64,000 nucleotides of DNA. Origin: Candidatus Amunia macphersoniae. Lineage in GTDB: Bacteria; Chloroflexota; Dormibacteria; Aeolococcales; Aeolococcaceae. The notes below the pieces were generated by a model that had not been told where the DNA came from, did no database searches, and saw only the letters and a list, made by a program, of their open reading frames with translations. The stretch is from the NCBI GenBank assembly GCA_016464795.1, contig JAEKNN010000058.1:966-64965 (forward strand), read 5' to 3'. This document shows positions 8,314 to 43,560 of this stretch, piece after piece (the stretch's first letter is position 1; the number at the start of each line of letters is the position of its first letter). Both the position numbers and the translations under genes were made by a program.

Positions 8314-8344
8314 GACACGCGACGGCGACGAGCCGTTGCGGAGC

Positions 8345-10138
8345 TCACAGGTTCTGCTGCTCGACCGTGTACGCCTCGATGATGTCGCCAACCGCGAAAT
8401 CGCTGAAGTCGTCCAGGGTGATGCCGCAGTCGTAGCCGCGAGCCACCTCGCGGACGTCGTCCTTGAACCGCTTCAGCACGGCGATCCGGCTGCGATGGAT
8501 CTGCCTCCCGTCGCGGAGAACAGTCGCTGTGGAGTTGCGGGGGATGCGGCCGTCGAGCACGTGGGAACCGGCGATCGCGTTCCTGCCGTCCACTGTGAAG
8601 ACCTGGCGCACCTCGGCGCGGCCCTGCAGCACATCGATGACCGTGGGCTCGTAGAGGCCCTTGATGGCGTTGGCGATGTCGTCGGTGATCTGGTAGATGA
8701 CGTCGTAGTAGCGCACGTCGACGCCCTGGGCGTCGGCCGCGAGCTTGGCGCGATCGTCGGGGCGCACGTTGAAGCCGATCACAATCGAATCGGTGACAGC
8801 GGCCAAGTTGACGTCTGCCTCGCCAACCGGGCCCACCCCGGAGGCGACGACCACCACCTTCACGTTGGCGTCCTCGATCTTCTCGATCTGGCCGCGCAGC
8901 GCCTCCAGCGACCCCGTGGAGTCGGCCTTGACCAGCACGTTGAGGTTCTTGACCGAGCCCTCGGCCACCTGCGAGGCGAGGTCGGCGAGGGTGATCCGCC
9001 GCACCGGCTGGGCGAGGCGTTCCTTGGCGTCGAACCCACGCTGCTCGGCAAGAGAGCGGGCGCTGCGCTCGTTGGCCATGACCTGGAACACGTCACCCGC
9101 CTCGGCGACGCCGGACAGGCCGGTGACCACCGCGGGCGTGCTCGGCCCCGCCTGCTGGAGGCGACCCCCGCGCTCGTCCAGAAGAGCGCGAATGCGCCCG
9201 TACACGTGGCCGGCGACGATGTAGTCGCCCACCTTGAGGCTGCCGTTCTGCACCAGCACCGTGGCGACGGGTCCGCGACCGGGATCACGGTCGGACTCGA
9301 TGACAGTCCCCACCGCTCTGCCCTTGGGGTTGGCCTTGGGCTCGACCTCCGCGTCGGCGGTGAGCACGATCATGTCGAGCAGGTCGTCGACGCCCTGACC
9401 GGTCCTGGCGCTGGTGCGGACAACAGTGATGTCACCGCCGTAGTCGCTGCTCACCAGGCCGCGATCGGCGAGCTGCTGGAGCACCCGATCGGGGTTGGCG
9501 CCGTCCTTGTCGACCTTGTTGAGGGCGACGATGATCGGCACCTCCGCGGTGCGGACGTGCTGGATCGCCTCCTCGGTCTGGGGCATGACGCCGTCGTCAG
9601 CGGCGACCACCAGGATGGCGATGTCGGTGACGTCCGCTCCCCGGGCGCGCATCGCGGTGAAGGCCTCATGGCCCGGGGTGTCGATGAACGTGATCGGACG
9701 CCCCTCTCTCTCCACCTGGTAGGCGCCGATCTTCTGGGTGATGCCGCCGGCCTCGCCGGCCGCGACGGTGGTCTCGCGCACACGATCCAGCAGGGATGTC
9801 TTGCCATGGTCGACATGGCCGAGAACCGTGACCACCGGGGGCCGGGCAACCAGGGTCGCCGGGTCGGCATCGGAGAAATCGAGCAGCGGGTTGCGCCGGC
9901 GGTTCGAGGTCCGCCCGACAGCGCTCGCACCATCCGCTGCGGCGGCCGCCGCCTCACTCTCGGCCTCGAAGCCGAAGTGGTCGGCCGCCAGGGCAGCTGT
10001 GTCGAAATCCACCGACTGGTTGAGGTTGGCAAGCACCCCATTGCCCATCAGGTATTTGATGAGCTCCGGCCCGGAGACTGACAGGCGTTCGGCGAGCTCC
10101 TTGACGGTCACAGTGGCCGGCAACTGAAGCTTCTTCAC
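8345..10138 (-). CDS. infB: Translation initiation factor IF-2 (short form, ~598 aa)
   Basis: [14 protein letters not shown]...[16 protein letters not shown] are G-domain motifs, and the C-terminal domains are conserved. The GTG at 10138 overlaps the ylxR TGA (GTGA), with AGGAGG 16 nt upstream. The long N-terminal domain of E. coli and mycobacterial IF-2 is absent. Confidence 0.88.
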
Positions 10139-10383
10139 CGTGGCGATGGCTGTACCTCCTGTCCCGGCGCCCCGATGATGGCGCCCAGTTCCTGGTAGTT
10201 GATCAGCTCCTCTCCGGTGCGAAGGGAGCGGGCCAGCGCCCGCCGGCGCCGTGCCTGCTCGAGGCACCCGATGCCCCCCGCGCAGACGTAGGCTCCCCGG
10301 CCGGGAAGCTGGTTGTGAACGTCAAGAGTAACCTGTCCGCGAGAATCGATGGCGAGGCGGACCAGCTCGGAGCGTGGCCTCAC
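10135..10383 (-). CDS. ylxR: YlxR/DUF448 family protein (nusA-infB operon RNA-binding protein); the true start is probably further upstream
   Basis: GRGAYVC...CLEQA is the conserved core. The family TCIGCR motif is encoded immediately upstream of the first listed GTG (10383), in frame but without a canonical start. The real start therefore likely overlaps the nusA 3' end. Confidence 0.6.
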   Translation of the reverse strand: MRPRSELVRLAIDSRGQVTLDVHNQLPGRGAYVCAGGIGCLEQARRRRALARSLRTGEELINYQELGAIIGAPGQEVQPSPR

Positions 10384-19719: not shown

Positions 19720-19831
19720 GGGGTCGGTGCCCCCGCGACAGCCGGCTCGGTCAGGGCTTCGACGGCATTGGCGGCGCTTCGCGCCTCGGCCGTCTGCAGA
19801 ATCTACCGGCCGTCACGGGGGCACCGACCCC
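19720..19831. repeat. Perfect 16-bp inverted repeat (GGGGTCGGTGCCCCCG / CGGGGGCACCGACCCC) separated by an 80-nt spacer, in the yebC upstream intergenic region
   Basis: The arms were read directly at 19720-19735 and 19816-19831. No coding potential is apparent in the region. Confidence 0.7.
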
Positions 19832-19906
19832 TCTCTTGGTGCACGGCGGCCCTACTCGGACGGGTGACCAGCTCCCCACTACGCGATGTCTGGTGGCATC
19901 GAACCG

Positions 19907-20360
19907 TCAGGTTTGCGGCTGGGCACGGCACCACTCGCACGCGAACGGCCAGCTGCCGAATCCCGTGTCCGGCGTGATGTGCCCAGCACCCTCGAAGATG
20001 GAGGCGGTGATCCCCAGAGCGTCGCCGTAGAGGGATTGGGCGCCGGCCGGGTTGTACGGGTCGGCGTCCGAGCACGCCATGGCGATCTCCCCGTCCACGC
20101 TGGCTCGCACCGCGTCGGCGTCGAACCTGTCGAGGCGAAACGACGCCCCACCGACCGGTAGGCATTCGGATGCCGGCGGTGAGACGAGCAGCAAGCGGTC
20201 GACCGGGTGGGCCGCCCGGAGTCCGCGCTCGGCGGCACGAAACCAAAGCAGGCACGCCAACGAGTGGCAGACGACGACCCGCTGCTCCCCGTCGAGAGCG
20301 GCGAGCTCTTGGTCGAGCACATCGAGCCACTGCTGCAACTGCGGCGCGTCGGGCTCGGGG
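19907..20360 (-). pseudogene. RBBP9/YdeN-family serine hydrolase (alpha/beta fold), 5'-truncated remnant
   Basis: The C-terminal ~150 aa (…LQQWLDVL…VVCHSLACLLWF…LLLVSPP…AGHITPDTGFGSW) align to the YdeN/RBBP9 family from about residue 38 onward. The N-terminal beta-strand/HG…HW segment is missing, and the reading frame instead runs into the 3' end of the adjacent methyltransferase gene. Confidence 0.5.
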
Positions 20361-20385
20361 AGCGATCGCTGACTCTCTTGTCGGG

Positions 20386-21252
20386 TCAGCCTTTTCTGGC
20401 GCGGAGGTAGGCGACCGCCAGGCGATTTTGGCCAACGCCAGCCTCGACGGACCCACGCAGAGCGCTCAGGAACAGTGACGCCTCCGTGCTCTCCAGCGCC
20501 CCGTCGACAGCCTCCAGCAGGGTGGGGGAAAGCGGATTCGGCGACGAATGAAGCACCTGTTCCCAATCGCGTGGGTGCGGTCGCGTGACCGAGACCTGCA
20601 GGATGAGCTCGACCTCCTCGAACCCGGCGTCCTCGGCAAGCCGCACGAGATCGTTCTCGTCGAAGTCCATCATCGGTCGCAGGTCTGGACCGCAGCGCCG
20701 CTCGATCTCGGCGACCACGCGGTCTCGCAGGCCCGCCACCGCCGAGACATCCCACCCCCAAAACATGCCCGGCGGCTCGGGGAACATGCGACGGTTGATG
20801 GGCTCGAAGATTGACAGGCGACCCCCCGGCCGGAGCACACGAAAGAACTCCGCGAACGCATCGCGCTTTCGGCTCGCGTAGATGAGGACCGATCGGGTCG
20901 TCACCGCGTCGACGCTCTCATCACCGACGCCGGCGAGATCCTCAGCGGAAGCCTGCACGTAGCTGGAGCGATCAGACACACCCATTGCCTCCGCCCGCTC
21001 CTCGCAAAGCCTCAGCAGCTTGCTGGAAACATCGCTGAAGACGACTCGCAGCGCGCCTCTGAGGGCTTCGAACGCTCCGAAACCGATCAGTCCGTCGCCG
21101 CACCCCACGTCGAGCAGAACGTCGTTCGGTCGCAGCGCCGCGCCGCCGAGGACACCGTCGCGATATCGCATCAACTCATCGCGCTGATCAGCCTGGAGCT
21201 CCGACCCTCCTTGACGGCGCAGCAGCAACCAGTCGGACCACGCGTCAGTCAC
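20386..21252 (-). CDS. Class I SAM-dependent methyltransferase
   Basis: VLDVGCGDGLIG (motif I) and LRPGGRLSIFE (motif post-II) are present. The GTG start at 21252 overlaps the GNAT gene TGA (GTGA). Confidence 0.75.
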   Translation of the reverse strand: MTDAWSDWLLLRRQGGSELQADQRDELMRYRDGVLGGAALRPNDVLLDVGCGDGLIGFGAFEALRGALRVVFSDVSSKLLRLCEERAEAMGVSDRSSYVQASAEDLAGVGDESVDAVTTRSVLIYASRKRDAFAEFFRVLRPGGRLSIFEPINRRMFPEPPGMFWGWDVSAVAGLRDRVVAEIERRCGPDLRPMMDFDENDLVRLAEDAGFEEVELILQVSVTRPHPRDWEQVLHSSPNPLSPTLLEAVDGALESTEASLFLSALRGSVEAGVGQNRLAVAYLRARKG

Positions 21253-21824
21253 GGGCGATCCATCCTGTGCACCCAGGCGTGGAGCGCGTAGCGGCGTCCT
21301 TTGTCCTCCACCATCGCCGGTGCCCTCTCCGTGAGTTGAAAGCCTGCACGCCGGGCCACATCGATGCTGGCAAGGTTGTCCAGCTCGGCCTCCACGGTCA
21401 CCGCGTCAAACCCAAGACCGTGGGCATGACGCGTGATCAGTCCAAGAGCTCGCGCGGCGACCCCCCTCCGCCGGTATGCCCGCCCCACCATGTAGCCGAC
21501 GCTGCCGGACTCCAAGTTGAGCATGACCTCGCCCTGGGGCTCTCGGCCGTCAGCTGTGATTGCCAGCTGCAAGCGCCTCCCGGCGACACGAGCCTGTTGT
21601 GCTCGCTCGATGAAATCCCTGGCGGCGGCTGCATCGAAGAGAGATGCCACAGGCAGACGGTAAGCGATCTCAGGATCATCGAACAACGTCATGACCGCGT
21701 CGACGTCCGCGTCCGTCCATTCGCGCAGGATCAGACCGTCTCCGGCGATGGAAACATCCGCACAGCCGTCGCCAGCAGCGGTTGCCCTCCTCACGCAAGC
21801 AGTATCGCGCTTCGTCAACCCCAC
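21249..21824 (-). CDS. GNAT family N-acetyltransferase (RimJ/RimL-like)
   Basis: …MVGRAYRRRGVAARALG… is an acetyl-CoA binding motif A region within a GNAT fold. The exact start is uncertain. Confidence 0.65.
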   Translation of the reverse strand: MGLTKRDTACVRRATAAGDGCADVSIAGDGLILREWTDADVDAVMTLFDDPEIAYRLPVASLFDAAAARDFIERAQQARVAGRRLQLAITADGREPQGEVMLNLESGSVGYMVGRAYRRRGVAARALGLITRHAHGLGFDAVTVEAELDNLASIDVARRAGFQLTERAPAMVEDKGRRYALHAWVHRMDRP

Positions 21825-22275
21825 GAAATTCAGATTGGGGTGGGTGATCGAAGCATGCCTCGCAGCTCTTGAGGAGTGTGGGCGCCGACTTGACGAGCTC
21901 GACCGGCATCCACATCGTTGGGCACATGGCGTCGCACCTGAAAGCGCGGGCTTCCAGTCTCCTGCTTGGCTCTCGCCCGCTGAGCCGCTTCGTGCAGATC
22001 AACCGTCTGGTGATGCTCACGACCGGCGCTGGTTCAGAGTCGAGCCCACCATTCTGGCTGCCGCGCGCCCGATACACGGCCTTCGTCGATTATGACCCTG
22101 AAGGCGCGGTGCGGTCCTTCCGAATCCTCGATGCCCGCAACCGTGGATTTCCCGACTGGAGCTCCATTCCTGCGGAGGTTGGCCAGGTCTCGGCGCCCGA
22201 GGGGTTTTGAGGTCAGTGCACGAGCAGGGATATCTCAACGGCCCTGCATGCCGGCTCTGTTCTGCGGCGCATGCA

Positions 22276-22665
22276 TCACACCAGCCGGAAGCGCTCGCAC
22301 ACCACCAGTGTGTCGCCAGTGGCGCGGTCAGCCGACCAGTATTGCAGCCCGGCAGCTCGCCAATCGGCGACGGTGGTGTAACCCTCGCCTTCATCGATGG
22401 CGAACTGAAGGTCCACATCGTTCAGGGCGACCACCTTCACGTCGATGACCTCGATGGTGCCGAGAGGCTCGCCGGAATACCCAGCGAGGAAGAACCACTC
22501 GCGTGCTCGCGGCAGGGGTTCCGCAGTGAAAGGCTCATATTCCGAACGAAGGCTGGCGGTTGCGGTCTTCTCGCCGCGGAGGACAGCGGCGACCAGCTTC
22601 TTCCGCAGCTCGCTGCGAGGGGCGCCGAGTTCGTATGGACGGACCGGCGGCGAGCGACGAGGCAT
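22276..22665 (-). CDS. ASCH domain protein
   Basis: LRGEKTATASLRSEYE…GEPLGTIEVIDVKVV…EGEGY is the ASCH fold signature. Confidence 0.6.
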   Translation of the reverse strand: MPRRSPPVRPYELGAPRSELRKKLVAAVLRGEKTATASLRSEYEPFTAEPLPRAREWFFLAGYSGEPLGTIEVIDVKVVALNDVDLQFAIDEGEGYTTVADWRAAGLQYWSADRATGDTLVVCERFRLV

Positions 22666-22758
22666 CCCTCAATCATAGGAACCAACATCGGGGCAGCCCG
22701 GCCCAGCCGGCTCCGCAGCACGGACTCCGGTGGCGCCGCCGGGACGCATACTCCGGCC

Positions 22759-23319
22759 ATGGACGACACCGCCGCGAGCCACGAAGGACCTTCGGTGACT
22801 GCGCCGGCGGTGTGGCCGGCGCCGCGTGCTGTCGAGATCCCTCGCGACGCCGACGAGTTGACCATGCTCGAAGCGTATCTGGACCACTACCGCGAAACCT
22901 TCGACCTGAAATGCGCCGGGATTGCTCCTGCCCGGATGTCGGAGCGCAGCTCACCACCGTCGACCATGAGCCTGCACGGCCTGGCGTGACACCTCGCCGG
23001 TGTCGAGCGATGGTGGTTCGCCATCCATTTTGCCGGGCTCGAGCTGCCCCTGCTGTATTACAGCAACGACGACCCTGACCAGGACTTCGAATCCCTTGAC
23101 GGTGATCCGCTGGAGGCTCTCCAGGTGTGGCGCGGTGAATGCGTGCGCTCGCGTCGCATCGTCGATGAGGCGTCGAGCCTCGTCCAACGAGGCGCCGTCG
23201 ATCGCAACGGCGGCTACACGTTGCGCTGGCTGATGCTGCGGATGATCATCGAGTACGCCCAGCACGCCGGACACGCGGACTTCCTGCGGGAGGGCATCGA
23301 CGGAGCAGTGGGCGCCTGA
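22759..23319 (+). pseudogene. DinB/DUF664-family (mycothiol-dependent-enzyme-like) protein with an in-frame TGA stop at 22987-22989
   Basis: One reading frame encodes …LEAYLDHYRETFDLKCAGI…STMSLHGLA*HLAGVERWWF…ALQVWRGECVRSRRIV…LRWLMLRMIIEYAQHAGHADFLREGIDG, a full-length DUF664/DinB_2 protein. The TGA sits where the family has a conserved Arg (CGA>TGA transition). Confidence 0.6.
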
Positions 23320-23350
23320 GCCTCATCCCCCCACCGCCAGGCTGCGCGTT

Positions 23351-24865
23351 CTAGAACGAGCCGCCCGCACCTGCGCCGCCCCCCGCTGCTCCTCCGCCCA
23401 TGCTCGCGGATGACCCGCCGCCGCCGAAACCGCCGTCGACGCCCAGCCAGGCACCGTAGAAGCCCGAATCACCCTGGGTGGGTACCAACCACCGTGGTTG
23501 GATGCCGCGTGCGTCGGCCCGCACCAGGAGGGGGTCGATGTCGCGCGTGCATGCGAGCGCGATCGCCCAGGGCAGGCAGTGCTCCACGTCGATCGCTCTC
23601 GCCACCTGCTCGTCAGGCTTGCCAGCGGCGGCCACGAGCCCACGCCGAAACCCCTCCCAGCGCGCTGCCAGTGCCGCTCCTGTGTCGGTGTTGCGGGAGA
23701 TCGTGGCAGCCACGCCGAACGCGACCACAGCAGACGTGCACGCCACCGCGATGCCGGGCAGCGCCCACGCCTGGTGTCCGATCAGCGCGGCTGCGGCATC
23801 CACGACGACCAGCGCCATCGATATCCACGCCAGCCATCGGAGGGGCGCCGCCTCACGGTCGGCATCGGCGCTGTACAGGCCGCGGTCCCGAAGGTCTGTG
23901 ATCAGCTGGGTGCGAAACGCGGCGAAGTTCCGGCGCAGGCCACCCAGGCGGCTGGTCGGGATGGTTCCGTCCTGTCGACTCGCGTCAGCCAGCCGCAACC
24001 AGACGACGCGCTCCCATGGCGCGTGCGCCTTGGACTCGTCCACGAGACGGACCACGTAATGTTTGTGGTCCGTCGACTCGATGGTGAGCGCGCCTCGCCT
24101 GGCCAGGTCGAACACCGTGGCAAGCACGAGAGATCGCGTGGGATGCCCGTTCCAGACGGCGCCGGCGATGGCGGGCTCGTCGTCAGTTGGTGGTTCGGTC
24201 GTTTCGGTGACCGGCGCGGCCACGCGGTTGCGCCGCAGCCACACTCGTCGTGCCCGTCCAACCACGACGATCAACAGCACCAGGGCCGCGATGTTGAGGG
24301 GGACGGCGGCAACGGCTGCAGCGACCCCTCTCGCCAGGGTGGGTGCCGGTGGACCGGACAGCAGATCCTCGTGCACCGCCGCCAGCGTCGCCGTCAACGC
24401 ACCGCTGAGGTCTCCGCTGAGCAGTCGCGGCGACATGATGTTGTCGTACAGGCGCGACAGCTCGGTCTGAGGCAATCGCCCCGCGGACAACCGGTGACCG
24501 GCGTAGAGGGCGGCGCTGCCGTGTTGGTTGTTGGTGCCTGGTTGAATGTCGACGAGCATCACAAGACCGTCTTGAGCTCCTGTGACGCTCTCGATGTCAG
24601 CACCGTTCATCAGCGCCTCCGCCTCGGCGATCGCCGTTGTGGAGTTGGCAGATTCCACCTGTACCTGCACCAGCACCGGGGTGCCCGCGGCCGCAACCGC
24701 CGTGGCCTGCGCACTGACGTTGTTGAGCTGTGCGCCGGTCAGGGCATGGGCGGCATCTCGAACCTCCGCGTGCGTTCCCAGCGCCAGTGCAGGAATACCC
24801 GTGGCGATGGCCGCCACGGCAGCCAGCGGCAGGGCCATCCGGAGACGCCGCCCGTGTCTGGACAC
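23351..24865 (-). CDS. DUF2207/TPM-like domain membrane protein with a Gly-rich C-terminal tail
   Basis: It has a signal peptide, an N-terminal TPM-like region (LVMLVDIQPGTNNQHGSAALYAG), central TM segments, and a C-terminal …GFGGGGSSASMGGGAAGGGAGAGGSF tail typical of the DUF2207 family. Confidence 0.5.
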   Translation of the reverse strand: MSRHGRRLRMALPLAAVAAIATGIPALALGTHAEVRDAAHALTGAQLNNVSAQATAVAAAGTPVLVQVQVESANSTTAIAEAEALMNGADIESVTGAQDGLVMLVDIQPGTNNQHGSAALYAGHRLSAGRLPQTELSRLYDNIMSPRLLSGDLSGALTATLAAVHEDLLSGPPAPTLARGVAAAVAAVPLNIAALVLLIVVVGRARRVWLRRNRVAAPVTETTEPPTDDEPAIAGAVWNGHPTRSLVLATVFDLARRGALTIESTDHKHYVVRLVDESKAHAPWERVVWLRLADASRQDGTIPTSRLGGLRRNFAAFRTQLITDLRDRGLYSADADREAAPLRWLAWISMALVVVDAAAALIGHQAWALPGIAVACTSAVVAFGVAATISRNTDTGAALAARWEGFRRGLVAAAGKPDEQVARAIDVEHCLPWAIALACTRDIDPLLVRADARGIQPRWLVPTQGDSGFYGAWLGVDGGFGGGGSSASMGGGAAGGGAGAGGSF

Positions 24866-25799
24866 CTGCCTAGCCTAACCGTCTGCGCCCGCGACTTCGA
24901 CCCCCGGGTTACGCCTGCCAGACGGCGTGATCTTGTTGAAAGACCACACGCGCTGACCACCACGGTGACCCAGGAGGAAGCTGACAGACGCTCTCCCCTA
25001 AAACCGAGCGGACCCGTTGACGCAGGACGTGACGGCAGGGGACATGGGCCGCTGGGCCGGTTGTGCCGTCGTCCCGGCTGGGCGGCGGATAGCTGATCAA
25101 CTTGATTAGGACTAGTCATCACGCCGTCCGCAGTGTGCTTCAATGACAGTGTCGGCTTCCATAGAATGGTCGTGGTGCCAAGAGAGTTTCGAGTGCTGTG
25201 GCGGATTTGTCCATCGCCAGAGGAGGACGAGCGGAACGCTCAACGCTTCTTTCGCGAGAAGTTCGCAGCGGAGGGCCTGCCGTCAGATCCGACTGCAACT
25301 GCTGCTGCCAAATCAATTGCTCCGATCGTTCCGTCAACGGGCATTCGCGTGCGAGCTCGGCGAGGGTCCAATCCCTTTCGCAGCAGGCGATTTCAAATCC
25401 AGGTGGATGGCTCTCGGCCGATCAGTCAGCCTTGGGAAGCGACTTCCGTTATCCCCGTCTGTCCTGGTTCACATGTGGTCAAGTGCTACTTCTTAGTTGA
25501 CTTCTTTTTACACGGCGGAGGGTCGGCCGTGGCGGTCGACGTCCCTCCAGGGCAGATTGTGGCAGTGGTGTATATCCCCCCCAAGTGGGGGATGTGGGCG
25601 GGCACCTGTCTGGTGCAAGGGCGAAGCGAGGATCCGTTAGCAGAGGATGCTCAAGATATACCCTGAATCGTCCTGGGTTTCGTGGAACTACGGCCTGTTG
25701 TTCATCAGCTTATGGTGGCCGAACGCGCGGACGGTTCGCAGTCACTGGCAGGCACCTCAAAGCCCAGAATAGGCTCGGACTTTCGGCGGCAGGACCGCC

Positions 25800-26961
25800 T
25801 AGTCGTCTGTAACACTAAAAGCTTGACTGTGAAGTGTCGAGGTGAGATGCTTCACCGAGATGTCGGCGCCGGCTCCTGCACTCCCTGTATCTGCTGAACA
25901 GCGCGCGGTTCTGGAGACGTGGACGCGTAGTCGCGTTCTTTCGCATCGTCAGGTGCAGAGAGCGCAGCTGGTGCTCTTGGCGGCCGACGGCCTGGCCAAT
26001 GAGATGATCGCCGCCCGGCTCGGCATGTCCAAGCCCAGCGTGCTCAAGTGGCGCGCCCGGTTCGCAGCTGATGGGGTCGACGGCCTCGAGGAGGCCCCTG
26101 GACGGGGACGACGACGGACGTACGGACAAGACTTCGTCGAGCGCGTGGTCAGCGCCACCCTGCGCGCACCTGACGATGGCACCACCCACTGGAGCACGCG
26201 TTCATTGTCAGGGCGGGTCGGTGCCAGCCACGCCACCGTGCACCGCATTTGGCAGGACATGGGACTGCAACCGCATCTCACGCGCACCTTCAAGTACAGC
26301 ACCGATCCCCACCTCGACGAGAGGGTCAGCGACGTGGTAGGGCTGTACATGAACCCGCCGGAGAACGCGATCGTGCTTTGCGTCGATGAGAAGTCACAGA
26401 TCCAGGCGCTGGACCGCACCCAGCCGCTCTTGCCGATGAAGCCACATCAGGTGGAACGCCAGACCCACGATTACAAGCGGAACGGCACCACCACTTTGTT
26501 CGCTGCCCTCGATGTGGCCACCGGTGAGGCCACCGGCGCCTGCTACCAGAAGCATCGGGCGACAGAGTTCCTGGCATTCCTAGAGCTCGTCGTGCGCGTC
26601 TATCCGCGGCGGCAACTCCACGTCATCGTTGACAACGCCTCCTCGCACAAGACACCGGAGGTACAGCAGTGGCTGAGTCGGCACCGCCGCGTTCATCTGC
26701 ACTTCACGCCGACCGGGTCGAGCTGGCTCAATCAGGTGGAGACGTGGTTCTCGGTCCTGAGCCGGCGCGCGATTCGGCGCGGCGTGTTCCGGAACTTGAG
26801 CGCGCTCATCGACGCCATCCAACGTTTCCTGGACGGATGGAACGAGCGCTGCAAGCCCTTCGTTTGGGTGAAGTCAGCTGAGCAAATTCTCGCTCAACTC
26901 AACCGTCAACGTTTCCATGAGACGGTCCACTAGCTAGCCTGAGTCCACGGCGCGACGACTG
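25800..26961 (+). mobile_element. IS630-family insertion sequence; boundaries are approximate
   Basis: It contains an intact DDE_3 transposase. The only flanking inverted match found is a 7-bp AGTCGTC next to a TA at 25800-25801, so the terminal inverted repeats are not resolved. Confidence 0.5.
25860..26933 (+). CDS. IS630-family transposase (HTH + DDE_3 endonuclease domain)
   Basis: There is an N-terminal HTH (…ANEMIAARLGMSKPSVLKWRARF) and a DDE_3 catalytic region (LCVDEKSQIQALDRTQP…YKRNGTTTLFAALD…IVDNASSHK…SSWLNQVE). Confidence 0.85.
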   Translation: MSAPAPALPVSAEQRAVLETWTRSRVLSHRQVQRAQLVLLAADGLANEMIAARLGMSKPSVLKWRARFAADGVDGLEEAPGRGRRRTYGQDFVERVVSATLRAPDDGTTHWSTRSLSGRVGASHATVHRIWQDMGLQPHLTRTFKYSTDPHLDERVSDVVGLYMNPPENAIVLCVDEKSQIQALDRTQPLLPMKPHQVERQTHDYKRNGTTTLFAALDVATGEATGACYQKHRATEFLAFLELVVRVYPRRQLHVIVDNASSHKTPEVQQWLSRHRRVHLHFTPTGSSWLNQVETWFSVLSRRAIRRGVFRNLSALIDAIQRFLDGWNERCKPFVWVKSAEQILAQLNRQRFHETVH

Positions 26962-26990
26962 CACGAAGGGAAGGAAAGGATGGGAAACCG

Positions 26991-27299
26991 ATGAGCGAGA
27001 TGGGCCAGCCCGTTCCACCGTTGCCTCCCGAGCCCACCCTTTCCGCCCGCGCCGCCCCGTCCGATGTCATCTTGGAAGGTGACCTTGACCACGGTGACCA
27101 GCGTCATCTTCGTGACCAACCGACGCAGAACTGTCCACACGAGCACGCCCGAGCAACTGGAGACCCAGTCTCGTCAGGCGCTGGTCCACAACCTCTTCTC
27201 GGTTGGTGGGGGTTCCCCTTCGGTTTCATTTGGACGCCGATTGCGTTGGCGAGCAACCGCCGAGCACTGCGTGAGCTCCGCGCAGGGGCCGGCAGGTAG
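26991..27299 (+). CDS. Hypothetical small protein (102 aa)
   Basis: The ATG is preceded by a strong ribosome-binding site (AAGGAAAGGATGGG). A C-terminal hydrophobic segment GWWGFPFGFIWTPIALA is present; there is no recognisable family. Confidence 0.3.
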   Translation: MSEMGQPVPPLPPEPTLSARAAPSDVILEGDLDHGDQRHLRDQPTQNCPHEHARATGDPVSSGAGPQPLLGWWGFPFGFIWTPIALASNRRALRELRAGAGR

Positions 27300-27612
27300 T
27301 TCGGCACGGAGCCGCAATCGCACAGAGAGAAACCCGCCTGGACGCCGCGTCAGTCGACGCTGGCCGACACTGCCGCTGAGGAATACGGTCACGAGCGCAC
27401 CATGCCGAATCTCGCAAACAATGGTGCTCACCCGTGACTGTGAGGGCCGGCAGCCGTTCAGGCGGGGTTCCGGTTGGCAGAATGCTGGCGTGACCGGTGG
27501 TCGGAGTCCCCTGACCGTTGGCTCGGCAGCAGGCAGACCTTCTCATGCGGTCCCGTTCGCAGTTGCAAGGACCGCGGTGATCGCAGCGGGTGAGTCCGGC
27601 GTGGTCGGAACG

Positions 27613-27912
27613 ATGGCTGTTGAGCTCAGAAACCCAAACACCTTCCCGTTCTGGCTCCTGGTGGTCACCGCCTACTGCGTCTTCGTCTTGGCGTTCGCGT
27701 GGGTAGCGGCGCTCATCAAGGAGATCAAACGGGAGACACCGCGCGCGACGCTTCTCGTCCTCGCGGTACTGCCTCCGGTCGGACTTTTGTTGTGGGCCAT
27801 TCAGCTCGACGCTCGTCTCGGATGGCGCTCGGTTGTCACCATTGCATTCGGCGCCACGTTATTGGCGGGGGTGTTCGCCATGTGGGCTGGTGGCGCCATG
27901 TCCGCCGCCTGA
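27613..27912 (+). CDS. Hypothetical small membrane protein (~99 aa, 3 predicted TM helices)
   Basis: MAVELRNPNTFPFWLLVVTAYCVFVLAFAWVAALI… is hydrophobic. The ATG is at 27613; the upstream part of the listed ORF is not protein-like. Confidence 0.4.
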   Translation: MAVELRNPNTFPFWLLVVTAYCVFVLAFAWVAALIKEIKRETPRATLLVLAVLPPVGLLLWAIQLDARLGWRSVVTIAFGATLLAGVFAMWAGGAMSAA

Positions 27913-27925
27913 GCCCCGTTCTCGC

Positions 27926-28420
27926 CTATGGCAGGTTGGCCAGGTCGCTGAGATCGCCCTGGATCTGGGCGTTCGCGGCGTCGAGCGAGTACGACAAGTT
28001 GGATCGCTGGACAGCGTTCGCGTAGTTCGACAGCAGCGAGTCGGCGATCGCCGTCCACTGTGACAGGTGCTGATGGAGCAGTTGATCGATGTCGGCGACG
28101 TTCGCGCTCACCGTGATCGTCTTCTCGCCCGCGAGGAACATCGCGATGGCGTTGTCTCCGCTCTGCTCGTCGGTCATGCACTGAGTCTTGTCGGGTTGCC
28201 CGCAGGCGGTTGTGGCAGCACCCGGCCTGAACTCTGGCGAGCGCAGGTTGGTGGCGACGAGCTGCTTGAGCCTGTCGACAGCGCTTGGAGGGGACGCCGT
28301 CGGAGGCACTGGAGACTGCGAGGCAACGGTTCCGCCACTGGTGGCCGGTGAGCCGCACCCGACAACGTTCCCCAGTGCTGCCGATCCGAGGGCCACCAGG
28401 ACCACGGCGTTCGCCCGCAT
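27926..28420 (-). CDS. Hypothetical lipoprotein
   Basis: The ATG at 28420 encodes MRANAVVLVALGSAALGNVVGCGSP, a signal peptide with a lipobox. Confidence 0.55.
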   Translation of the reverse strand: MRANAVVLVALGSAALGNVVGCGSPATSGGTVASQSPVPPTASPPSAVDRLKQLVATNLRSPEFRPGAATTACGQPDKTQCMTDEQSGDNAIAMFLAGEKTITVSANVADIDQLLHQHLSQWTAIADSLLSNYANAVQRSNLSYSLDAANAQIQGDLSDLANLP

Positions 28421-28639
28421 GGGCCAAGTGTATGGCGGCCGGAGACGGCCGCTCGGCAGCCACCGACGCCGCAACGACCGCGGGGGTCGACAACGTTGAT
28501 TGGGCCTCATGGGAACCTCACACTCAGGGCGTACGGCGTCGAACGCAGTTCTGGCGCGCTACTGGTGGGTTGACTCTTTCATCGTCGTCCACCTCGTGCC
28601 CGCGATTCGTAGGCATTGGCGGCTTCGCGCCCCAAACTA

Positions 28640-28978
28640 TCACGGTGGCGACGACGGACGCCGCTCGTCGAGGAGACCCTCGATCGTGGCCTTCGAGAGC
28701 CCGTGCTTACTCAAAATCTCGGCGGCCGTGGTCGAGCCCTGAGAGGTGAGCGCAAACAGGAAGTGTGCAGAGCTGAGCTCCTCCGCCCACTGATCGGCAA
28801 GGGCGACAGCGATGGAGACCAGCTCCCGCACGAGGCCAGCACGCCGGTCGGCCTCGGGAGCGGCAATGAGTTCGCGCAACGCGTCGGTCGACTGACCGCG
28901 CTCGACGTCTTTTCCCGCGGCCACGTGCCGGCTCCAAGCCGTGGTGGGGAGACGATCGCGCACCTTGTCGACGGTCAC
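28640..28978 (-). CDS. Clp_N (Clp amino-terminal) domain-like protein, single repeat
   Basis: …AEELSSAHFLFALTSQGSTTAAEILSKHGLSKATIEGLLDE resembles a Clp_N repeat. The GTG at 28978 would overlap the TGA of the upstream Clp_N gene once that gene's frameshift is corrected (GTGA). Confidence 0.5.
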   Translation of the reverse strand: MTVDKVRDRLPTTAWSRHVAAGKDVERGQSTDALRELIAAPEADRRAGLVRELVSIAVALADQWAEELSSAHFLFALTSQGSTTAAEILSKHGLSKATIEGLLDERRPSSPP

Positions 28979-29372
28979 GCCGAGTCTGTCAGGACATGTG
29001 CGGCAAGCCCCTCACGTTCGATCAACCAACCGAGCAGGAGGTGCTCGGTGTGCCTACCTCACCATCGCCCCGCCGGCGAGCTTCCTCGAAGGAGAGCTCC
29101 ACGACGACCTTCACCCGCGATGTCGGGATGATCCCCTGCTCACGCTTCTGTGGCGCGTTCCGGCCCAGGAGGGGGTCGATCATCCGGCGCACCCTGTCGA
29201 TATCGACACACATGCCATTCAACACCGTGGCAGCACGGCCGTCGCCCACACGGACCACACCGAGGAGCAGATGCTCGGTGCCGATGTATGTGTGGCGGGC
29301 GCGTTCGGCCTCCTCCTGCGCCAGCGTGAGCGCCTCCTTGGCTCCGTCGGAGAAGCGTCCAAAGGGATGCAC
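28966..29372 (-). pseudogene. Clp_N domain protein (two repeats) carrying a 1-nt insertion around 29050
   Basis: Repeat 1 is intact (FSDGAKEALTLAQEEAERARHTYIGTEHLLLGVV). Repeat 2 switches frame after …ELSFEEARRRGDGEV; removing one base restores GTEHLLLGWLIEREGLAAHVLTDSA*, ending at TGA 28966-28968. The listed ORF ends prematurely at 29022. Confidence 0.6.
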
Positions 29373-29407
29373 GTCAGATCGTCAGTGGGAAGGAGCGCGG
29401 CCGACGC

Positions 29408-29977
29408 CTACCTGGACAACTCCGCGCACACATGGTCCAGGTTCGCCCGCCACACAACGTGGGGCGTGGGTGGCAGGACGTCATCCCAGATCGCGGCGAA
29501 GCTGCCGATCAGCTGGGGGATTCGCGCCGGGCGCGCCATGAACCACCAATGCAGGTGCTCGGTGCCGTCACCCCACCGGCAGACGTGGACGCGGCCGATC
29601 TCCCCGACCGACCGGATCGCGCGCTCGACGCGGACCAGCATCACGCCCAGCTCGGCCGCCAAGTCGTCCGAGAGGTCGCCTGGCTCGGCGTAATGCTCGC
29701 GAGGCTCCAACAGGAGCACCACGGGCAGGCCGCTGGGCTGCGATGGGGCGAAGAGGCGCCATCGCTCATTCGTCCACAGGTACTTCTCGTCGGTCGCCGT
29801 GCAGCTCCTGCAGTCCACCCCGCCTCGTCCCTCGCGAGGAGGATCCGTGTCGGCCGGTGCACGCAGCGGCCGTGGACGCATCTCTCCGCCGAAGGGGAAC
29901 GTGTCCCACTCCCCCACCGGAGGCATGCGCAGACCGTCAAGAACTCGCTCGTAGAGCTGCTCGGGCGTTTCCGGCAT
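29408..29977 (-). CDS. HIT-like superfamily protein with an N-terminal Cys pair and a degenerate histidine triad
   Basis: CRSCTATDEKYLW…GTEHLHWWFMARP sits at the HIT position (HxHxx). It is divergent from and paralogous in layout to the neighbouring canonical HIT gene. Confidence 0.45.
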   Translation of the reverse strand: MPETPEQLYERVLDGLRMPPVGEWDTFPFGGEMRPRPLRAPADTDPPREGRGGVDCRSCTATDEKYLWTNERWRLFAPSQPSGLPVVLLLEPREHYAEPGDLSDDLAAELGVMLVRVERAIRSVGEIGRVHVCRWGDGTEHLHWWFMARPARIPQLIGSFAAIWDDVLPPTPHVVWRANLDHVCAELSR

Positions 29978-30011
29978 GGACGCCTCCGGGTGGGCACTGT
30001 AGGCTGCAACC

Positions 30012-30521
30012 GTGCAGTGGCCTGAGTCGTTTTACCAGAAGCTGCGCGGCGTCGGCTGCACGATGTGCGCGCAGGGGCGCCCGGACGCGACCGACGACGG
30101 CGTTCGTTTCCACGCCGGTGTGGTCACCGACGCGTACCTGCGTCGCGCCAACATCCAGCGCGGCCTCACAGTGGTCATCTGGCGCGGCCGTCACGTTGCC
30201 GAACCAACGGAGTTGCGCGACGACGAGGCAGCCCTGTACTGGCGCGAGGTTCTGATGGTGGGTCGTGCTCTCGAGGAGGCGTTCCGGCCGGTGAAGCTCA
30301 ACTACAACGTGCTGGGCAATTCGCTGCCACACCTGCACACGCACATAGTTCCCCGCTACGCCGACGACCCACGGCCGGGGTGGCCTTTCCCGTTTCCAGA
30401 AGAGGACCCTTCGCCCATTCCGGACGACGCCTTGCGCCGCGACCTCGACGCGCTTCGCGCCGTGCTGGTGCGCTCATCGTCGCCGACCTCTGCGGGTCAG
30501 CGACGATCAGTCAGCGGATGA
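30012..30521 (+). CDS. HIT family hydrolase
   Basis: It carries the canonical histidine triad NSLPHLHTHIVPRY and an N-terminal CTMCAQG. Confidence 0.75.
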   Translation: MQWPESFYQKLRGVGCTMCAQGRPDATDDGVRFHAGVVTDAYLRRANIQRGLTVVIWRGRHVAEPTELRDDEAALYWREVLMVGRALEEAFRPVKLNYNVLGNSLPHLHTHIVPRYADDPRPGWPFPFPEEDPSPIPDDALRRDLDALRAVLVRSSSPTSAGQRRSVSG

Positions 30522-30566
30522 AGCGCGCGGCGCGCTGCTGATCCCGTGCACGAAGTGCTGCGGAGC

Positions 30567-31763
30567 TCACTCCACCAGGCGCTGGCTGAGGAGCTGTTGC
30601 TCGGCCGCGTTCGAGGTGAGAGTGACCGCCCTCCGGTCGGCGTCAGCCGCTTCGCCGTCGCGGCTCAGATCACGCAGGAGCACAGCCCGGGTGGCGTGGA
30701 AGAGGTGGTAGCCGTCGAGAAGGCCGCTCAAGCGATCGACCTCGGTGAGGGCAATCGCAGGCCCATCAACCTGACCCAGCGCGATGGCACGGTTCAAGAG
30801 AACCACCGGTGATGGATCGAGTGCCGCGAGCACGCTGTACAGGCCGACGACTCGGCGCCAGTCGGTCTGCTCCCAGGTGGTCGCCTCGCAGTGCACGGCG
30901 GCGATGGCTGCCTGCACCTGATACGGACCGGGACGCTGCAGCGCGGTGGCACGCCCGAGCAAGCGCACCGCGTCGGTGATCGCCCGGCGATCCCACAGCG
31001 CTCGGTCCTGGTCGGCCAGAAGTACGAGTTGCCCGTGCTCATCCAGGCGCGCCGGCCATCGCGCCAGATGGAGGCGGATCAGAGCGAGCAGCCCCAGCGG
31101 TTCCGGCTCGCCGGGCAGCAGACGCACCAGCAGTCCGGCGAGCCACTCCACGTCCTGGACCAGGTCCTGGCGGGTCGCGTCCTCGCCGCTGGTGGCCAGG
31201 TGGCCTTCGTTGAACACCAGGTAGAGAACCGTGAGCACCTCGCCCAGTCGATCGCCGAGCTCCGCCCCAGCCGGGATTCGGTACGGGATGCCGGCGGCCA
31301 CGATCTTCCGCTTCGCCCGGGTGATGCGCTTGGCCATGGTGGCCTCCGGGACCAGGAAGGCTCGCGCGATCTCGGTGGTGGTCAGCCCCACCACCGCGCG
31401 GAGCGTGAGCGCCACCTGCGCCTCACGCTCCAATGCTGGGTGGCAGCAGGTGAAGATCAGGCGCAACCGGTCGTCGACCTCGCGCCGCGGCACCTCGGGG
31501 ATCGCCGCGACCCTCTGGAGCAGCTCGCGGTACTTCGCCTCCCGTCTCAGCCGGTCGAGACCCTTGCGACGCGCCGCGGTCAGCAACCAGGCTCCGGGAC
31601 GGTCAGGAACGCCGTCGCGGGGCCAGTGCTCCAGGGCTTCGACGAGCGCGTCGGCGACCAGCTCCTCGGCAAGGTCGAAGTCGCCGATGAGGCGAACCAG
31701 GCTCGCGGTGAGCCGGCCCGCCTCTTCCCGGAAGACACGCTCGACCGGGCTCTGCGACGGCAC
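30567..31763 (-). CDS. ECF-type RNA polymerase sigma factor with a long C-terminal extension (~200 aa)
   Basis: The N-terminal ~190 aa have sigma-70 regions 2 and 4 (…LVADALVEALEHW…, …LTTTEIARAFLVPEATMAKRITRAK…), followed by a helical C-terminal domain of the DUF6596-like type. Confidence 0.75.
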   Translation of the reverse strand: MPSQSPVERVFREEAGRLTASLVRLIGDFDLAEELVADALVEALEHWPRDGVPDRPGAWLLTAARRKGLDRLRREAKYRELLQRVAAIPEVPRREVDDRLRLIFTCCHPALEREAQVALTLRAVVGLTTTEIARAFLVPEATMAKRITRAKRKIVAAGIPYRIPAGAELGDRLGEVLTVLYLVFNEGHLATSGEDATRQDLVQDVEWLAGLLVRLLPGEPEPLGLLALIRLHLARWPARLDEHGQLVLLADQDRALWDRRAITDAVRLLGRATALQRPGPYQVQAAIAAVHCEATTWEQTDWRRVVGLYSVLAALDPSPVVLLNRAIALGQVDGPAIALTEVDRLSGLLDGYHLFHATRAVLLRDLSRDGEAADADRRAVTLTSNAAEQQLLSQRLVE

Positions 31764-31769
31764 AGGGAC

Positions 31770-32111
31770 TCAGCGGACCACGACGGGTCGAATCTCCGCA
31801 AATCCGCTCGGCGACGGGAAGGTGCGGACGATCGCGATCGCCTCGTCGAGATCGGCGACATCGAGGATGCCGTATCCGCCGACCACCTCTTTGGCCTCCA
31901 TGAACGGTCCGTCAACAATCGTCGACTGGCCGCCGCGCAGCACCACCGTGGTGGCTGTGTCGGGGTGCTGGAGTTGATGTCCTGCGACGATCTTCCCCTC
32001 AGCGGCAAGGCGTCCCCACCACTGCTGGATCTCGCCGAAGATCCGGTTGCGCTCGTCCTCGGGCGCCTTGTCCTCCCACTCGCTGCGCGACAGCAAGACC
32101 ATGTACTGCAT
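31770..32111 (-). CDS. YciI-like (YCII-related/DGPF) domain protein
   Basis: MQYMVLLSRSE…DGPFMEAKEVVGGYGILDVADLDEAIAI is the YciI fold. GGAGG lies 6 nt upstream of the ATG at 32111, and the gene is directly upstream of the ECF sigma gene. Confidence 0.75.
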   Translation of the reverse strand: MQYMVLLSRSEWEDKAPEDERNRIFGEIQQWWGRLAAEGKIVAGHQLQHPDTATTVVLRGGQSTIVDGPFMEAKEVVGGYGILDVADLDEAIAIVRTFPSPSGFAEIRPVVVR

Positions 32112-32434
32112 CTCGGGGCCTCCAATCGGTTGATCCTGCATCGACGACGAATGGCCGTGCCGGAATTGGACAGGTCGGCTCTGCCTCGACGCTGGCGATT
32201 GAGCTGTCAAGCGTTCCTCACCAGGCGCGCCATTCTCAGCCAAGCGGCCCGCGGGTCCCATCAGTGGCTGCCGGGCTGAGATCGTTGCCCGCACATCGCC
32301 CACCGCCCTGCCACCCCGCGGCAGCCAAACACGTGCCACGCGCACACGGATGTACGCGCCTCCCGGCCTGTCTCGTATCCTGAGGGCGAGCGGCCTGGCC
32401 CACCTGCCCGGCCGGCGTGCTGAGGGCTGATGAG

Positions 32435-43412: not shown

Positions 43413-43486
43413 TGGGCGCAATTGGATTCGAACCAATGAACCTCTGCGATGTCAACGCAGCGCTCTAACCAGCTGAGCTATGCGCC
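43413..43486 (-). tRNA. tRNA-Val (anticodon GAC)
   Basis: The minus-strand sequence GGGCGCATAGCTCAGCTGGTTAGAGCGCTGCGTTGACATCGCAGAGGTTCATTGGTTCGAATCCAATTGCGCCCA folds into a cloverleaf. The acceptor stem is GGGCGCA/TGCGCCC, the anticodon loop is TTGACAT, and the T-loop is GGTTCGAATCC. No CCA is encoded. Confidence 0.85.
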
Positions 43487-43560
43487 CGCGCGCGGCGGGC
43501 CCCCGGCCCGGGCGGCCGATGATACCAGCCGTGCGTCCCCTCGAGGACCTGTGCGGCCCC

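What the first reader, a model, noticed from the sequence alone, without database searches (positions are those of the whole stretch)
28640..29372. Orphan Clp_N-domain gene pair; the upstream gene is broken by a single-base insertion
29022-29372 encodes a Clp amino-terminal domain whose second repeat loses frame after …EARRRGDGEV. Deleting one base (the extra a in ggcACAccgagc on the coding strand) restores …GTEHLLLGWLIEREGLAAHVLTDSA. It also creates a GTGA overlap with a second Clp_N-like ORF (28640-28978). Stand-alone Clp_N proteins, like ClpC2 in mycobacteria, are poorly characterised; a tandem pair with one member inactivated is unusual.
Basis: seen in the sequence. Interest (0 to 1): 0.5.

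Follow-up and report, generated by a model that had tools for sequence, protein, structure and literature searches.

The report
Decaying Clp_N gene, twice frameshifted
What looked like a tandem pair of small Clp_N genes is one gene for a 243-residue stand-alone ClpC-N-domain-like protein that two real frameshifts have killed and that is now decaying in an uncultured soil Dormibacterota lineage: an ordinary pseudogene.

Summary
The Clp_N identity and the loss of frame are real, but the anatomy was misread. Window 28640-29372 (minus strand) is one gene, not two. It encoded a ~243-aa protein with three Clp_N repeats and is broken twice. One break is a 2-bp CA insertion at 29048-29052, not a single base. 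The other is a 1-bp G deletion between 28985 and 28984. The "second ORF" is the tail of the same gene, and the GTGA overlap is an artefact.

A 95%-identical syntenic contig carries the intact gene. The only indels in 2.8 kb of that alignment lie inside this gene. The broken allele is 100% identical in two further assemblies from different sequencing runs, so it is not an assembly error.

The window copy has also collected amino-acid changes at otherwise conserved positions (23 against 4 when polarised; relative-rate tests up to 16:0). Both halves are affected, including loss of an invariant Glu in the third repeat.

The source is the MAG Candidatus Amunia macphersoniae, where the pieces are annotated as two hypothetical proteins. 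Intact relatives are stand-alone ClpC-N-domain look-alikes in variable, often mobile, contexts. Their function is inferred only: ligand or phospho-arginine binding, or modulation of ClpC. Low interest.

The parts
28640..29372 (-). Whole pseudogene: one ancestral CDS for a ~243-aa protein with three Clp_N repeats, now split over three reading frames
   Evidence: The repaired translation aligns end to end with intact relatives. Pfam Clp_N matches 3 stretches, 124.8 bits. The intact syntenic orthologue is L001 2093-2839.
29052..29372 (-). Segment A, original frame, codons 1-107 (GTG start to ...GDGEVG). It holds Clp_N repeat 1 and the first half of repeat 2. It is annotated in the source MAG as MBJ7610185.1 (116 aa with an out-of-frame tail ending at 29022).
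29048..29052 (-). Lesion 1: 2-bp insertion. CACAC here against CAC in the intact orthologue, that is one extra CA dinucleotide. Its exact placement within the repeat is ambiguous.
   Evidence: DNA alignment with L001. Removing 2 bases restores GTEHLLLG; removing 1 base does not.
28985..29049 (-). Segment B, second frame, codons 108-128 plus 2 nt (TEHLLLGWLIEREGLAAHVLT-E). This is the conserved GTEH core of Clp_N repeat 2. Neither called ORF translates it.
   Evidence: tblastn finds three collinear pieces in three frames.
28984..28985 (-). Lesion 2: 1-bp deletion between these two bases. The G of the GAG codon is lost (orthologue GAG CTC GGC GTG ACC = ELGVT).
   Evidence: DNA alignment with L001. 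P0001 reads HVLTELGVTVDKVRDRL.
28640..28984 (-). Segment C, third frame, codons 130-243 plus stop: end of repeat 2, a poorly conserved linker and Clp_N repeat 3. It is annotated in the source MAG as a separate protein, MBJ7610184.1 (112 aa from GTG 28978).
28766..28768 (-). Codon 202, GCA (Ala), where all intact relatives have the invariant Glu of the third-repeat (G/S)(T/S)EH motif. This Glu is the counterpart of the phospho-arginine-site glutamates E32/E106 of ClpC.
   Evidence: E32/E106 role: PMC12583610.
28918..28919 (-). In-frame 3-bp deletion relative to the orthologue, in the variable linker (AATGK becomes AAGK)

Best explanation
Window 28640-29372 (minus strand) is a single, genuinely inactivated gene: a unitary pseudogene. 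It lies in the chromosome of the uncultured Dormibacterota lineage Candidatus Amunia macphersoniae.

Shown:
- The ancestral product was a ~243-aa stand-alone protein with no AAA+ ATPase part.
- In the AlphaFold model of the intact orthologue (AF2), it had a complete ClpC-type N-domain (two Clp_N repeats, aa 1-~142), a disordered linker, and a C-terminal helical module holding a third Clp_N repeat.
- A CA dinucleotide expansion (+2 bp) and a single-G loss (-1 bp) 65 nt apart throw the central GTEH core of repeat 2 out of frame and separate the two ends.
- Both ends have since accumulated replacements at conserved positions, so neither fragment is maintained by selection.

Inferred:
- The intact family acts as a decoy or sensor that mimics the ClpC N-domain. 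It would bind the same ligands as the ClpC N-domain (phospho-arginine-tagged proteins, adaptor-like partners or N-domain-targeting peptides), or it would modulate ClpC. This would resemble the way mycobacterial ClpC2 sponges ClpC1 ligands.
- The family is dispensable accessory cargo, which is why this copy could be lost.
For: One gene, not two:
- The repaired reading aligns without gaps across both junctions with 12 intact 225-252-aa relatives.
- Pfam finds 3 Clp_N stretches, 124.8 bits, E 1.5e-36.
- tblastn gives three collinear pieces in three frames.

Nature of the lesions:
- The orthologous contig L001 (Logan SRR22405878) is syntenic over 2.8 kb (ECF sigma, HIT, HIT-like, Clp_N) at 94.9% identity.
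- Its only indels against the window are +CA, -G and an in-frame -3 bp, all inside this gene.

Not a sequencing artefact:
- The identical broken allele (100% over 5838 and 3060 nt, both lesions present) occurs in assemblies of two other runs, SRR31090145 and SRR24198227.
- The flanking genes and the infB-rbfA-nrnA-truB genes are intact.
- Neither lesion is in a homopolymer.

Relaxed selection in the window lineage:
- Nucleotide identity is 96-99% in the neighbours and 88-90% in this gene.
- dN is 0.078 here against 0.016-0.023 in the neighbours.
- Of the replacements polarised with 11 outgroups, 23 are window-derived and 4 orthologue-derived (binomial p = 3e-4). At conserved columns the count is 11 to 1.
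- Tajima relative-rate tests are significant for 10 of 11 outgroups (for example 16:0 and 17:1).
- Both halves are affected, 11:1 and 11:3.
- Changes include E202A and L206F at columns invariant in all the intact relatives aligned.

Family identity:
- Residues 4-142 match ClpC N-domain structures (5hbn E 3e-33; Mtb ClpC1 NTD about 1e-29), and ClpC2 far more weakly.
- The AF2 model of the intact orthologue has an N-domain at pLDDT above 93. The Foldseek top hits that span only the N-domain are all ClpC N-domains (rank 1 is a full-length ClpC model).

Accessory nature:
- Intact relatives sit beside a TrwC relaxase and an integrase, or beside ars-like and TIR genes.
- A phage family, phrog_35667, matches at 1e-34.
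- The window copy lies at a synteny break, 1.7 kb from an IS630-type transposase, in a lower-GC stretch.
Against: - dS in the gene (0.196) is also higher than in the flanks (0.015-0.12). Identity also falls gradually towards the synteny break. Part of the extra divergence could therefore reflect a deeper allele or a recombination edge rather than relaxed selection alone.
- Raw reads were not inspected.
- The three sequencing runs may come from related soils or the same project.
- The proposed function of the intact family is untested. No clpC, clpP or mcsB partner is present in the window, and the rest of the genome could not be searched.
Confidence: 0.9

Rival explanations
1. The frameshifts are sequencing or assembly errors. 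The organism actually has an intact 243-aa gene.
For: The source is a metagenome-assembled genome. Two indels only 65 nt apart could in principle arise from a local mis-assembly of strain variants.
Against: - The same two lesions are present, at 100% identity, in two further assemblies from different sequencing runs.
- There are no other indels in 2.8 kb of alignment with the orthologue.
- The lesions are not in homopolymers.
- The strong one-sided excess of replacements at conserved residues cannot be produced by indel errors.
Confidence: 0.03
2. One reading: two separate tandem Clp_N genes. The upstream one is broken, and the downstream one (28640-28978) is an independent, possibly functional, gene.
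For: Both pieces were called as separate proteins by the NCBI and UniProt annotation. The downstream piece has a weak Clp_N match of its own (E 2.9e-5).
Against: - Intact relatives carry both parts in one polypeptide, with continuous homology across the supposed gene boundary (HVLTELGVTVDKVRDRL).
- The first 12 residues of the downstream 'gene' are the last helix of repeat 2.
- Gene callers disagree on its start (112 aa against 94 aa).
- It has lost the invariant Glu and Leu of its own repeat and shows 11:3 lineage-specific decay.
Confidence: 0.03
3. Programmed recoding: two ribosomal -1 shifts (or transcriptional slippage) rebuild the full-length protein from the split gene.
For: One -1 slip at each site could formally compensate both lesions (derived).
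Against: - There is no X XXY YYZ slippery heptamer in either incoming frame, and no homopolymer at either site.
- The closest relative has the plain uninterrupted frame.
- Conserved residues are being lost, which is incompatible with a maintained product.
Confidence: 0.01
4. The N-terminal fragment (116 aa: repeat 1 plus half of repeat 2) survives as a neo-functional truncated protein.
For: It keeps the original start. Its first repeat still matches Pfam Clp_N strongly (E 1.1e-16).
Against: - The Clp_N fold needs both repeats. The GTEH core of repeat 2 is out of frame.
- This part shows 11:1 window-specific replacements, including H26R, L40V, E42V and G55C at conserved columns.
Confidence: 0.03

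Closest known systems
N-terminal domain of ClpC / ClpC1 AAA+ unfoldases (e.g. B. subtilis ClpC NTD, PDB 5hbn; M. tuberculosis ClpC1 NTD, 3wdc/6cn8)
   Same: - Residues 4-142 of the repaired protein align full-length (E 3e-33 and about 1e-29).
- Same double-repeat helical fold in the AF2 model of the orthologue (Foldseek TM about 0.7-0.78 relative to target).
- Both GTEH glutamates that define the two phospho-arginine pockets of ClpC (E32/E106, PMC12583610) are present as E33/E109.
   Different: - There are no AAA+ modules, M-domain or ClpP-binding loop. NCBIfam ClpA/ClpB/ClpK models match only their first ~145 positions.
- It has an extra linker and a third Clp_N repeat at the C-terminus.
- Here it is a pseudogene.
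Mycobacterial/actinobacterial ClpC2 (stand-alone Clp_N protein; autorepressor and sponge for cyclomarin/rufomycin and pArg; PMC10030653, PMC13345244)
   Same: It is a small non-ATPase protein built around a ClpC-NTD-like domain. That makes a decoy, sponge or sensor mode of action plausible.
   Different: - ClpC2 has an N-terminal dimerisation/DNA-binding part followed by a C-terminal Clp_N domain. Here the Clp_N domain is N-terminal and is followed by a third repeat.
- No DNA-binding domain was detected (only sub-threshold MarR noise).
- Sequence similarity to ClpC2 structures is much weaker (E 1.5e-10 for 8ad9, 4.8e-12 for 9p2p) than to ClpC NTDs.
- Different phylum.
Plant chloroplast ClpT1/ClpT2 ('double Clp-N motif protein', PDB 4y0b/4y0c)
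   Same: They are stand-alone Clp_N-only proteins. By my own recollection they act on the Clp machinery; this was not checked here.
   Different: Similarity is only distant (E 1.4e-7 and 6e-4). They have two repeats rather than three and are eukaryotic organellar proteins.
'Clp protease N-terminal domain-containing protein' of Dormibacterota/Chloroflexota MAGs, and phage family phrog_35667
   Same: - Direct homologues at 45-84% identity over the full length, sizes 225-252 aa, with the same three-repeat layout.
- The phage family matches the N-domain at 1e-26 to 1e-34.
   Different: Those are intact ORFs; this copy is frameshifted twice and decaying. None has a tested function.

Membership tests
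Pfam PF02861 Clp_N (Clp amino-terminal repeat) | Profile match above the gathering score (20.7 bits) | tested here: met
   ORF1 scores 61.1 bits and ORF2 24.6 bits. The repaired protein scores 124.8 bits with 3 matched stretches.
Three-repeat stand-alone Clp_N proteins of Dormibacterota/Chloroflexota (~225-252 aa) | Full-length collinear homology: N-domain, linker and third repeat in one polypeptide | tested here: met
Three-repeat stand-alone Clp_N proteins of Dormibacterota/Chloroflexota (~225-252 aa) | Uninterrupted reading frame and retention of invariant residues, that is a functional member | tested here: not met
   There are two frameshifts. E202A and L206F fall at invariant columns. Lineage-specific replacements are 23:4.
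ClpC/ClpA/ClpB class AAA+ unfoldases | One or two AAA+ ATPase modules after the N-domain | tested here: not met
   No AAA domain in Pfam. NCBIfam ClpB/ClpA/ClpK models match only at about positions 3-145 or the equivalent. Intact relatives end at 225-252 aa. There is no further Clp_N or Clp homology in the window.
ClpC2 (actinobacterial autorepressor/sponge) | N-terminal dimerisation/DNA-binding region followed by a C-terminal Clp_N domain | tested here: not met
   The domain order is reversed: Clp_N starts at residue 4 and the C-terminal module is a third Clp_N repeat. Architecture of ClpC2 as described in PMC10030653 and PMC13345244.
ClpC2 (actinobacterial autorepressor/sponge) | Binds pArg / cyclomarin-type peptides and represses its own promoter | not testable with these tools
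   This needs biochemistry. Only the conservation of the GTEH glutamates (E33, E109) could be seen.
Programmed -1 ribosomal frameshift site | Slippery heptamer X XXY YYZ in the incoming frame at the shift site | tested here: not met
   None in ORF1's frame over its whole length, and none in the middle frame between the two lesions.

The most novel reading that the evidence does not exclude
The intact relatives of this pseudogene may form an uncharacterised class: three-repeat proteins that mimic the ClpC N-domain, carried largely on mobile elements (ICE-like regions, phages) in Dormibacterota and Chloroflexota. They would act as decoys that soak up phospho-arginine-tagged proteins or N-domain-targeting peptide antibiotics, or that blunt host ClpC-ClpP. 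The lone third repeat might mediate dimerisation. The window copy would then be a relic of such an element-borne gene, lost after the element decayed. The evidence does not exclude this, but nothing here tests binding or activity.
Probability: 0.2. Interest if true: 0.5.

Novelty: new member of a known kind. Interest (0 to 1): 0.15.

Why it matters
- It corrects a database annotation. MBJ7610185.1 and MBJ7610184.1 (UniProt A0A934KQX6 and A0A934KGK2, 'Clp R domain-containing protein') are fragments of one dead gene, not two proteins.
- It shows that the 'tandem pair' is not a biological arrangement.
- The family behind it is more interesting than this copy. These are stand-alone ClpC-N-domain look-alikes with a third repeat, in variable and often mobile contexts. 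They could extend the ClpC2 sponge/sensor idea beyond Actinomycetota. This particular locus gives no handle on that question.

Tried and rejected
It gives a stop after 16 codons. Rejected.
- **My first repair of the second junction.** I inserted a G to read ...LTDSGVTV. DNA comparison with the orthologue corrected this to ...LTELGVTV. The two spurious differences at positions 129-130 were left out of the polarised counts.
- **Genome-contig scan with the repaired protein.** It was swamped by GTEH-type patterns that hit ClpC genes of Dehalococcoidia.
- **Metagenome-contig scan with a degenerate DNA pattern that accepts both alleles at lesion 1.** It gave 0 hits.
- **Other scans.** PADLOC found no defence-system match. 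The promoter/terminator scan found nothing. Plus-strand shadow ORFs had no Pfam match.
- **Inverted-repeat search to define the IS630 ends.** Inconclusive.
- **Suspicion that overlapping stop-to-stop ORFs elsewhere marked more frameshifts.** Checked at 6.8-10.4 kb and rejected: infB, rbfA, the DHH-family gene and truB are intact.
- **Search for a clpC, clpX or second Clp_N gene in the window.** None found.

Full report
**Observation**

On the minus strand, ORF 29022-29372 (116 aa) and ORF 28640-28978 (112 aa) both exist. Both match Pfam Clp_N, at E 1.1e-16 and 2.9e-5. The first ORF does leave the Clp_N pattern after ...EARRRGDGEVG.

The proposed repair is wrong in detail. Deleting one base gives ...GEVGTRAPPARLVDRT*. 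Two bases must be removed, the extra CA in GGCACACCGAG, to read GTEHLLLGWLIEREGLAAHVLT.

That restored frame then ends at a TGA that overlaps the GTG 'start' of the second ORF. The homology does not stop there, however. In ClpC N-domains and in all close relatives, the sequence AAHVL..LG is followed directly by V/A-T/x-V/L-D-K/x-V-R, which is how the 'second ORF' begins (MTVDKVRDRL...). Adding one base at this junction fuses everything into a single 243-codon frame.

**One gene, two lesions**

It also found a dozen other intact proteins of 225-252 aa that cover 91-100% of the query. In the alignment both junctions are seamless, reading ...RRGDGEVGTEHLLLG... and ...AAHVLTELGVTVDKVRDRL....

The contig that encodes P0001 (L001, Logan SRR22405878) is syntenic with the window, in the order ECF sigma factor, HIT, HIT-like ORF, Clp_N gene. 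It aligns over 2,823 nt at 94.9% identity. The only indels in that whole alignment lie inside this gene:
- +CA at window 29048-29052 (CACAC against CAC);
- -G between 28985 and 28984 (GA-CTC against GAGCTC);
- an in-frame -3 bp in the linker at 28918/28919.

tblastn of the repaired protein against the window returns three collinear pieces in three different frames and no other Clp_N homology in the 64 kb. The repaired protein scores 124.8 bits against Clp_N with three matched repeats. The 'pair' is therefore one gene, and the GTGA overlap is a by-product of the second frameshift. Gene callers disagree on where the downstream piece starts: 112 aa in NCBI against 94 aa in Logan.

**Real mutation or artefact**

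An exact look-up identifies the source as the MAG Candidatus Amunia macphersoniae (Candidatus Dormibacteraeota), on a contig of 110,459 nt. The pieces are annotated there as two hypothetical proteins, JF887_12255/MBJ7610185.1 and JF887_12250/MBJ7610184.1.

The same broken allele occurs in assemblies of two other sequencing runs, SRR31090145 (5,838 nt) and SRR24198227 (3,060 nt). Both are 100% identical to the window and carry both lesions. Neither lesion lies in a homopolymer. The flanking genes have no stops or indels. The infB-rbfA-DHH-truB genes elsewhere in the window are intact.

The window copy also shows one-sided decay:
- Nucleotide identity to L001 is 96-99% in the neighbours and 88-90% within this gene.
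- dN is 0.078, against 0.016-0.023 in the three neighbours.
- Polarising each amino-acid difference with 11 outgroup relatives gives 23 window-derived changes against 4 orthologue-derived ones (binomial p = 3e-4). At strongly conserved columns the count is 11 against 1. Two artefactual positions from my first repair are excluded.
- Tajima relative-rate tests are significant with 10 of 11 outgroups, for example 16:0 and 17:1. The excess is the same in the upstream part (11:1) and the downstream part (11:3).
- Changes include H26R, L40V, E42V, G55C, L115W, R195W, E202A and L206F. E202 and L206 are invariant in every intact relative.

Indel errors cannot produce this pattern. The gene has been free of purifying selection for some time, and neither fragment is being maintained.

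One caveat applies. dS is also raised (0.196 against 0.015-0.12), and identity falls gradually towards the synteny break at the 3' end of the gene. A deeper allele or a recombination edge may therefore contribute to the extra divergence.

**What the gene was**

Residues 4-142 of the repaired protein match solved ClpC N-domains best (B. subtilis 5hbn E 3e-33; M. tuberculosis ClpC1 NTD about 1e-29). They match mycobacterial ClpC2 much less well (1.5e-10 and 4.8e-12), and plant ClpT-type double Clp-N proteins less well still. NCBIfam ClpA/ClpB/ClpK models match only their N-terminal ~145 positions. There is no AAA+ part.

The two glutamates that define the phospho-arginine pockets of ClpC (E32, E106; PMC12583610) correspond to E33 and E109. 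The equivalent Glu of the third repeat is the one mutated to Ala here.

The AlphaFold2 model of the intact orthologue has these features:
- a confident N-domain (residues 1-128, pLDDT above 93);
- a disordered linker (134-148);
- a separate five-helix C-terminal module (149-223) that contains the third repeat;
- pTM of 0.55, which suggests two independent modules.

Among the Foldseek matches in the PDB, those that span only the N-domain are all ClpC N-domains; the top-ranked match is a full-length ClpC model.

**Context**

Intact relatives have no conserved neighbour and often lie in mobile or accessory DNA. One set is flanked by a TrwC relaxase fragment and a tyrosine integrase (L084, L085). 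Another lies between an ars-like cluster and a TIR gene (L087). A phage protein family of unknown function (phrog_35667) matches at 1e-26 to 1e-34. PADLOC has no match.

In the window, homology with L001 stops at 28644, at the stop codon of the gene. Downstream lie a predicted lipoprotein, an IS630-type DDE_3 transposase (25842-26933) and a stretch of lower GC (59-65% against 69%). No ORF from about 19.8 to 29.4 kb passes the composition filter (GC3 above 0.80 and GC2 below 0.62) that genes in the rest of the window pass. Both Logan contigs end at 27079, next to the transposase. The plus strand over the locus has only shadow ORFs without family matches, and no promoter- or terminator-like sites were found.

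**Mechanism**

Shown: a CA expansion and a G loss destroy the reading frame of a single three-repeat Clp_N gene. The central GTEH helix of repeat 2 cannot be translated from either called ORF, and both ends are decaying.

Inferred: the intact family works as a mimic of the ClpC N-domain. It would bind what the ClpC N-domain binds (phospho-arginine-tagged proteins, adaptor-like partners, N-domain-targeting peptides), or it would interfere with ClpC. This would be analogous to the sponge/sensor role shown for ClpC2 (PMC10030653; PMC13345244). As accessory cargo it would be dispensable. It is not a member of the ClpC2 family, because the domain order and the extra parts differ.

**Rivals**

- **Sequencing error** is contradicted by the three concordant assemblies and by the decay pattern.
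- **Two independent genes** is contradicted by continuous homology across the 'boundary' in all intact relatives.
- **Programmed frameshifting** lacks any slippery site and conflicts with the decay.
- **A surviving truncated N-terminal fragment** is contradicted by the 11:1 replacement excess in that fragment.

**Verdict**

The locus is an ordinary, recently decayed pseudogene of a known kind of protein, a stand-alone Clp_N protein. Its practical value is as an annotation correction, and interest is low. The intact three-repeat family and its association with mobile elements are the only mildly interesting leads.

Noticed in passing
window 25842-26933 (+); contig ends at 27079: There is an IS630-type transposase (DDE_3 with HTH domains, E 2e-24). 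It is 1.7 kb downstream of the pseudogene. Both independent Logan contigs that carry the locus stop at exactly window 27079. This suggests a multi-copy element or a variable junction there. The terminal inverted repeats were not resolved.
   Followed up: partly
window 28644 / L001 2823: Synteny with the 95%-identical relative ends exactly at the stop codon of the Clp_N gene. The relative has four more codons (RGDK) and unrelated DNA downstream. The window has a predicted lipoprotein (27926-28510, -) instead.
   Followed up: partly
window ~19800-29400: About 10 kb contains no ORF with both GC3 above 0.80 and GC2 below 0.62, unlike the rest of the window. GC falls to 59-65% at 25-28.4 kb. The region encodes a serine hydrolase, a methyltransferase, a GNAT, an ASCH protein, a DUF2207/TPM membrane protein and the transposase. 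It may be an accessory or acquired region.
   Followed up: partly
window 29408-32345: A gene set is conserved in the relative and in the Logan contigs: a YCII-domain protein, an ECF sigma factor with DUF6596 (30567-31763, -), a HIT-family protein (30012-30521, +) and a second HIT-like ORF (29408-29977, -) directly upstream of the pseudogene. The HIT gene has dN/dS of about 1 against the relative, but on only 8 differences.
   Followed up: no
L084 6001-6735, L085 613-1347, L087 6001-6678: Intact three-repeat Clp_N homologues in other Dormibacterota MAGs sit beside a TrwC relaxase fragment and a tyrosine integrase, or beside an ArsR/GNAT/glyoxalase/MIP/LMWPc (ars-like) cluster and a TIR-domain gene. 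This suggests spread with mobile elements.
   Followed up: partly
phrog_35667 (PHROGs), matched by P0001 and P0039: A phage protein family of unknown function (profile 235 positions) matches the Clp_N N-domain of this family at E 1e-26 to 1e-34. Stand-alone Clp_N proteins of similar size therefore also occur in phages.
   Followed up: no
window 5961-10267 (-) and 43413-43487 (-): Ordinary housekeeping content is present: truB, a DHH-family (NrnA-like) gene, rbfA and infB in a row, all intact, and a single tRNA-Val(GAC). This confirms that the window is chromosomal.
   Followed up: partly
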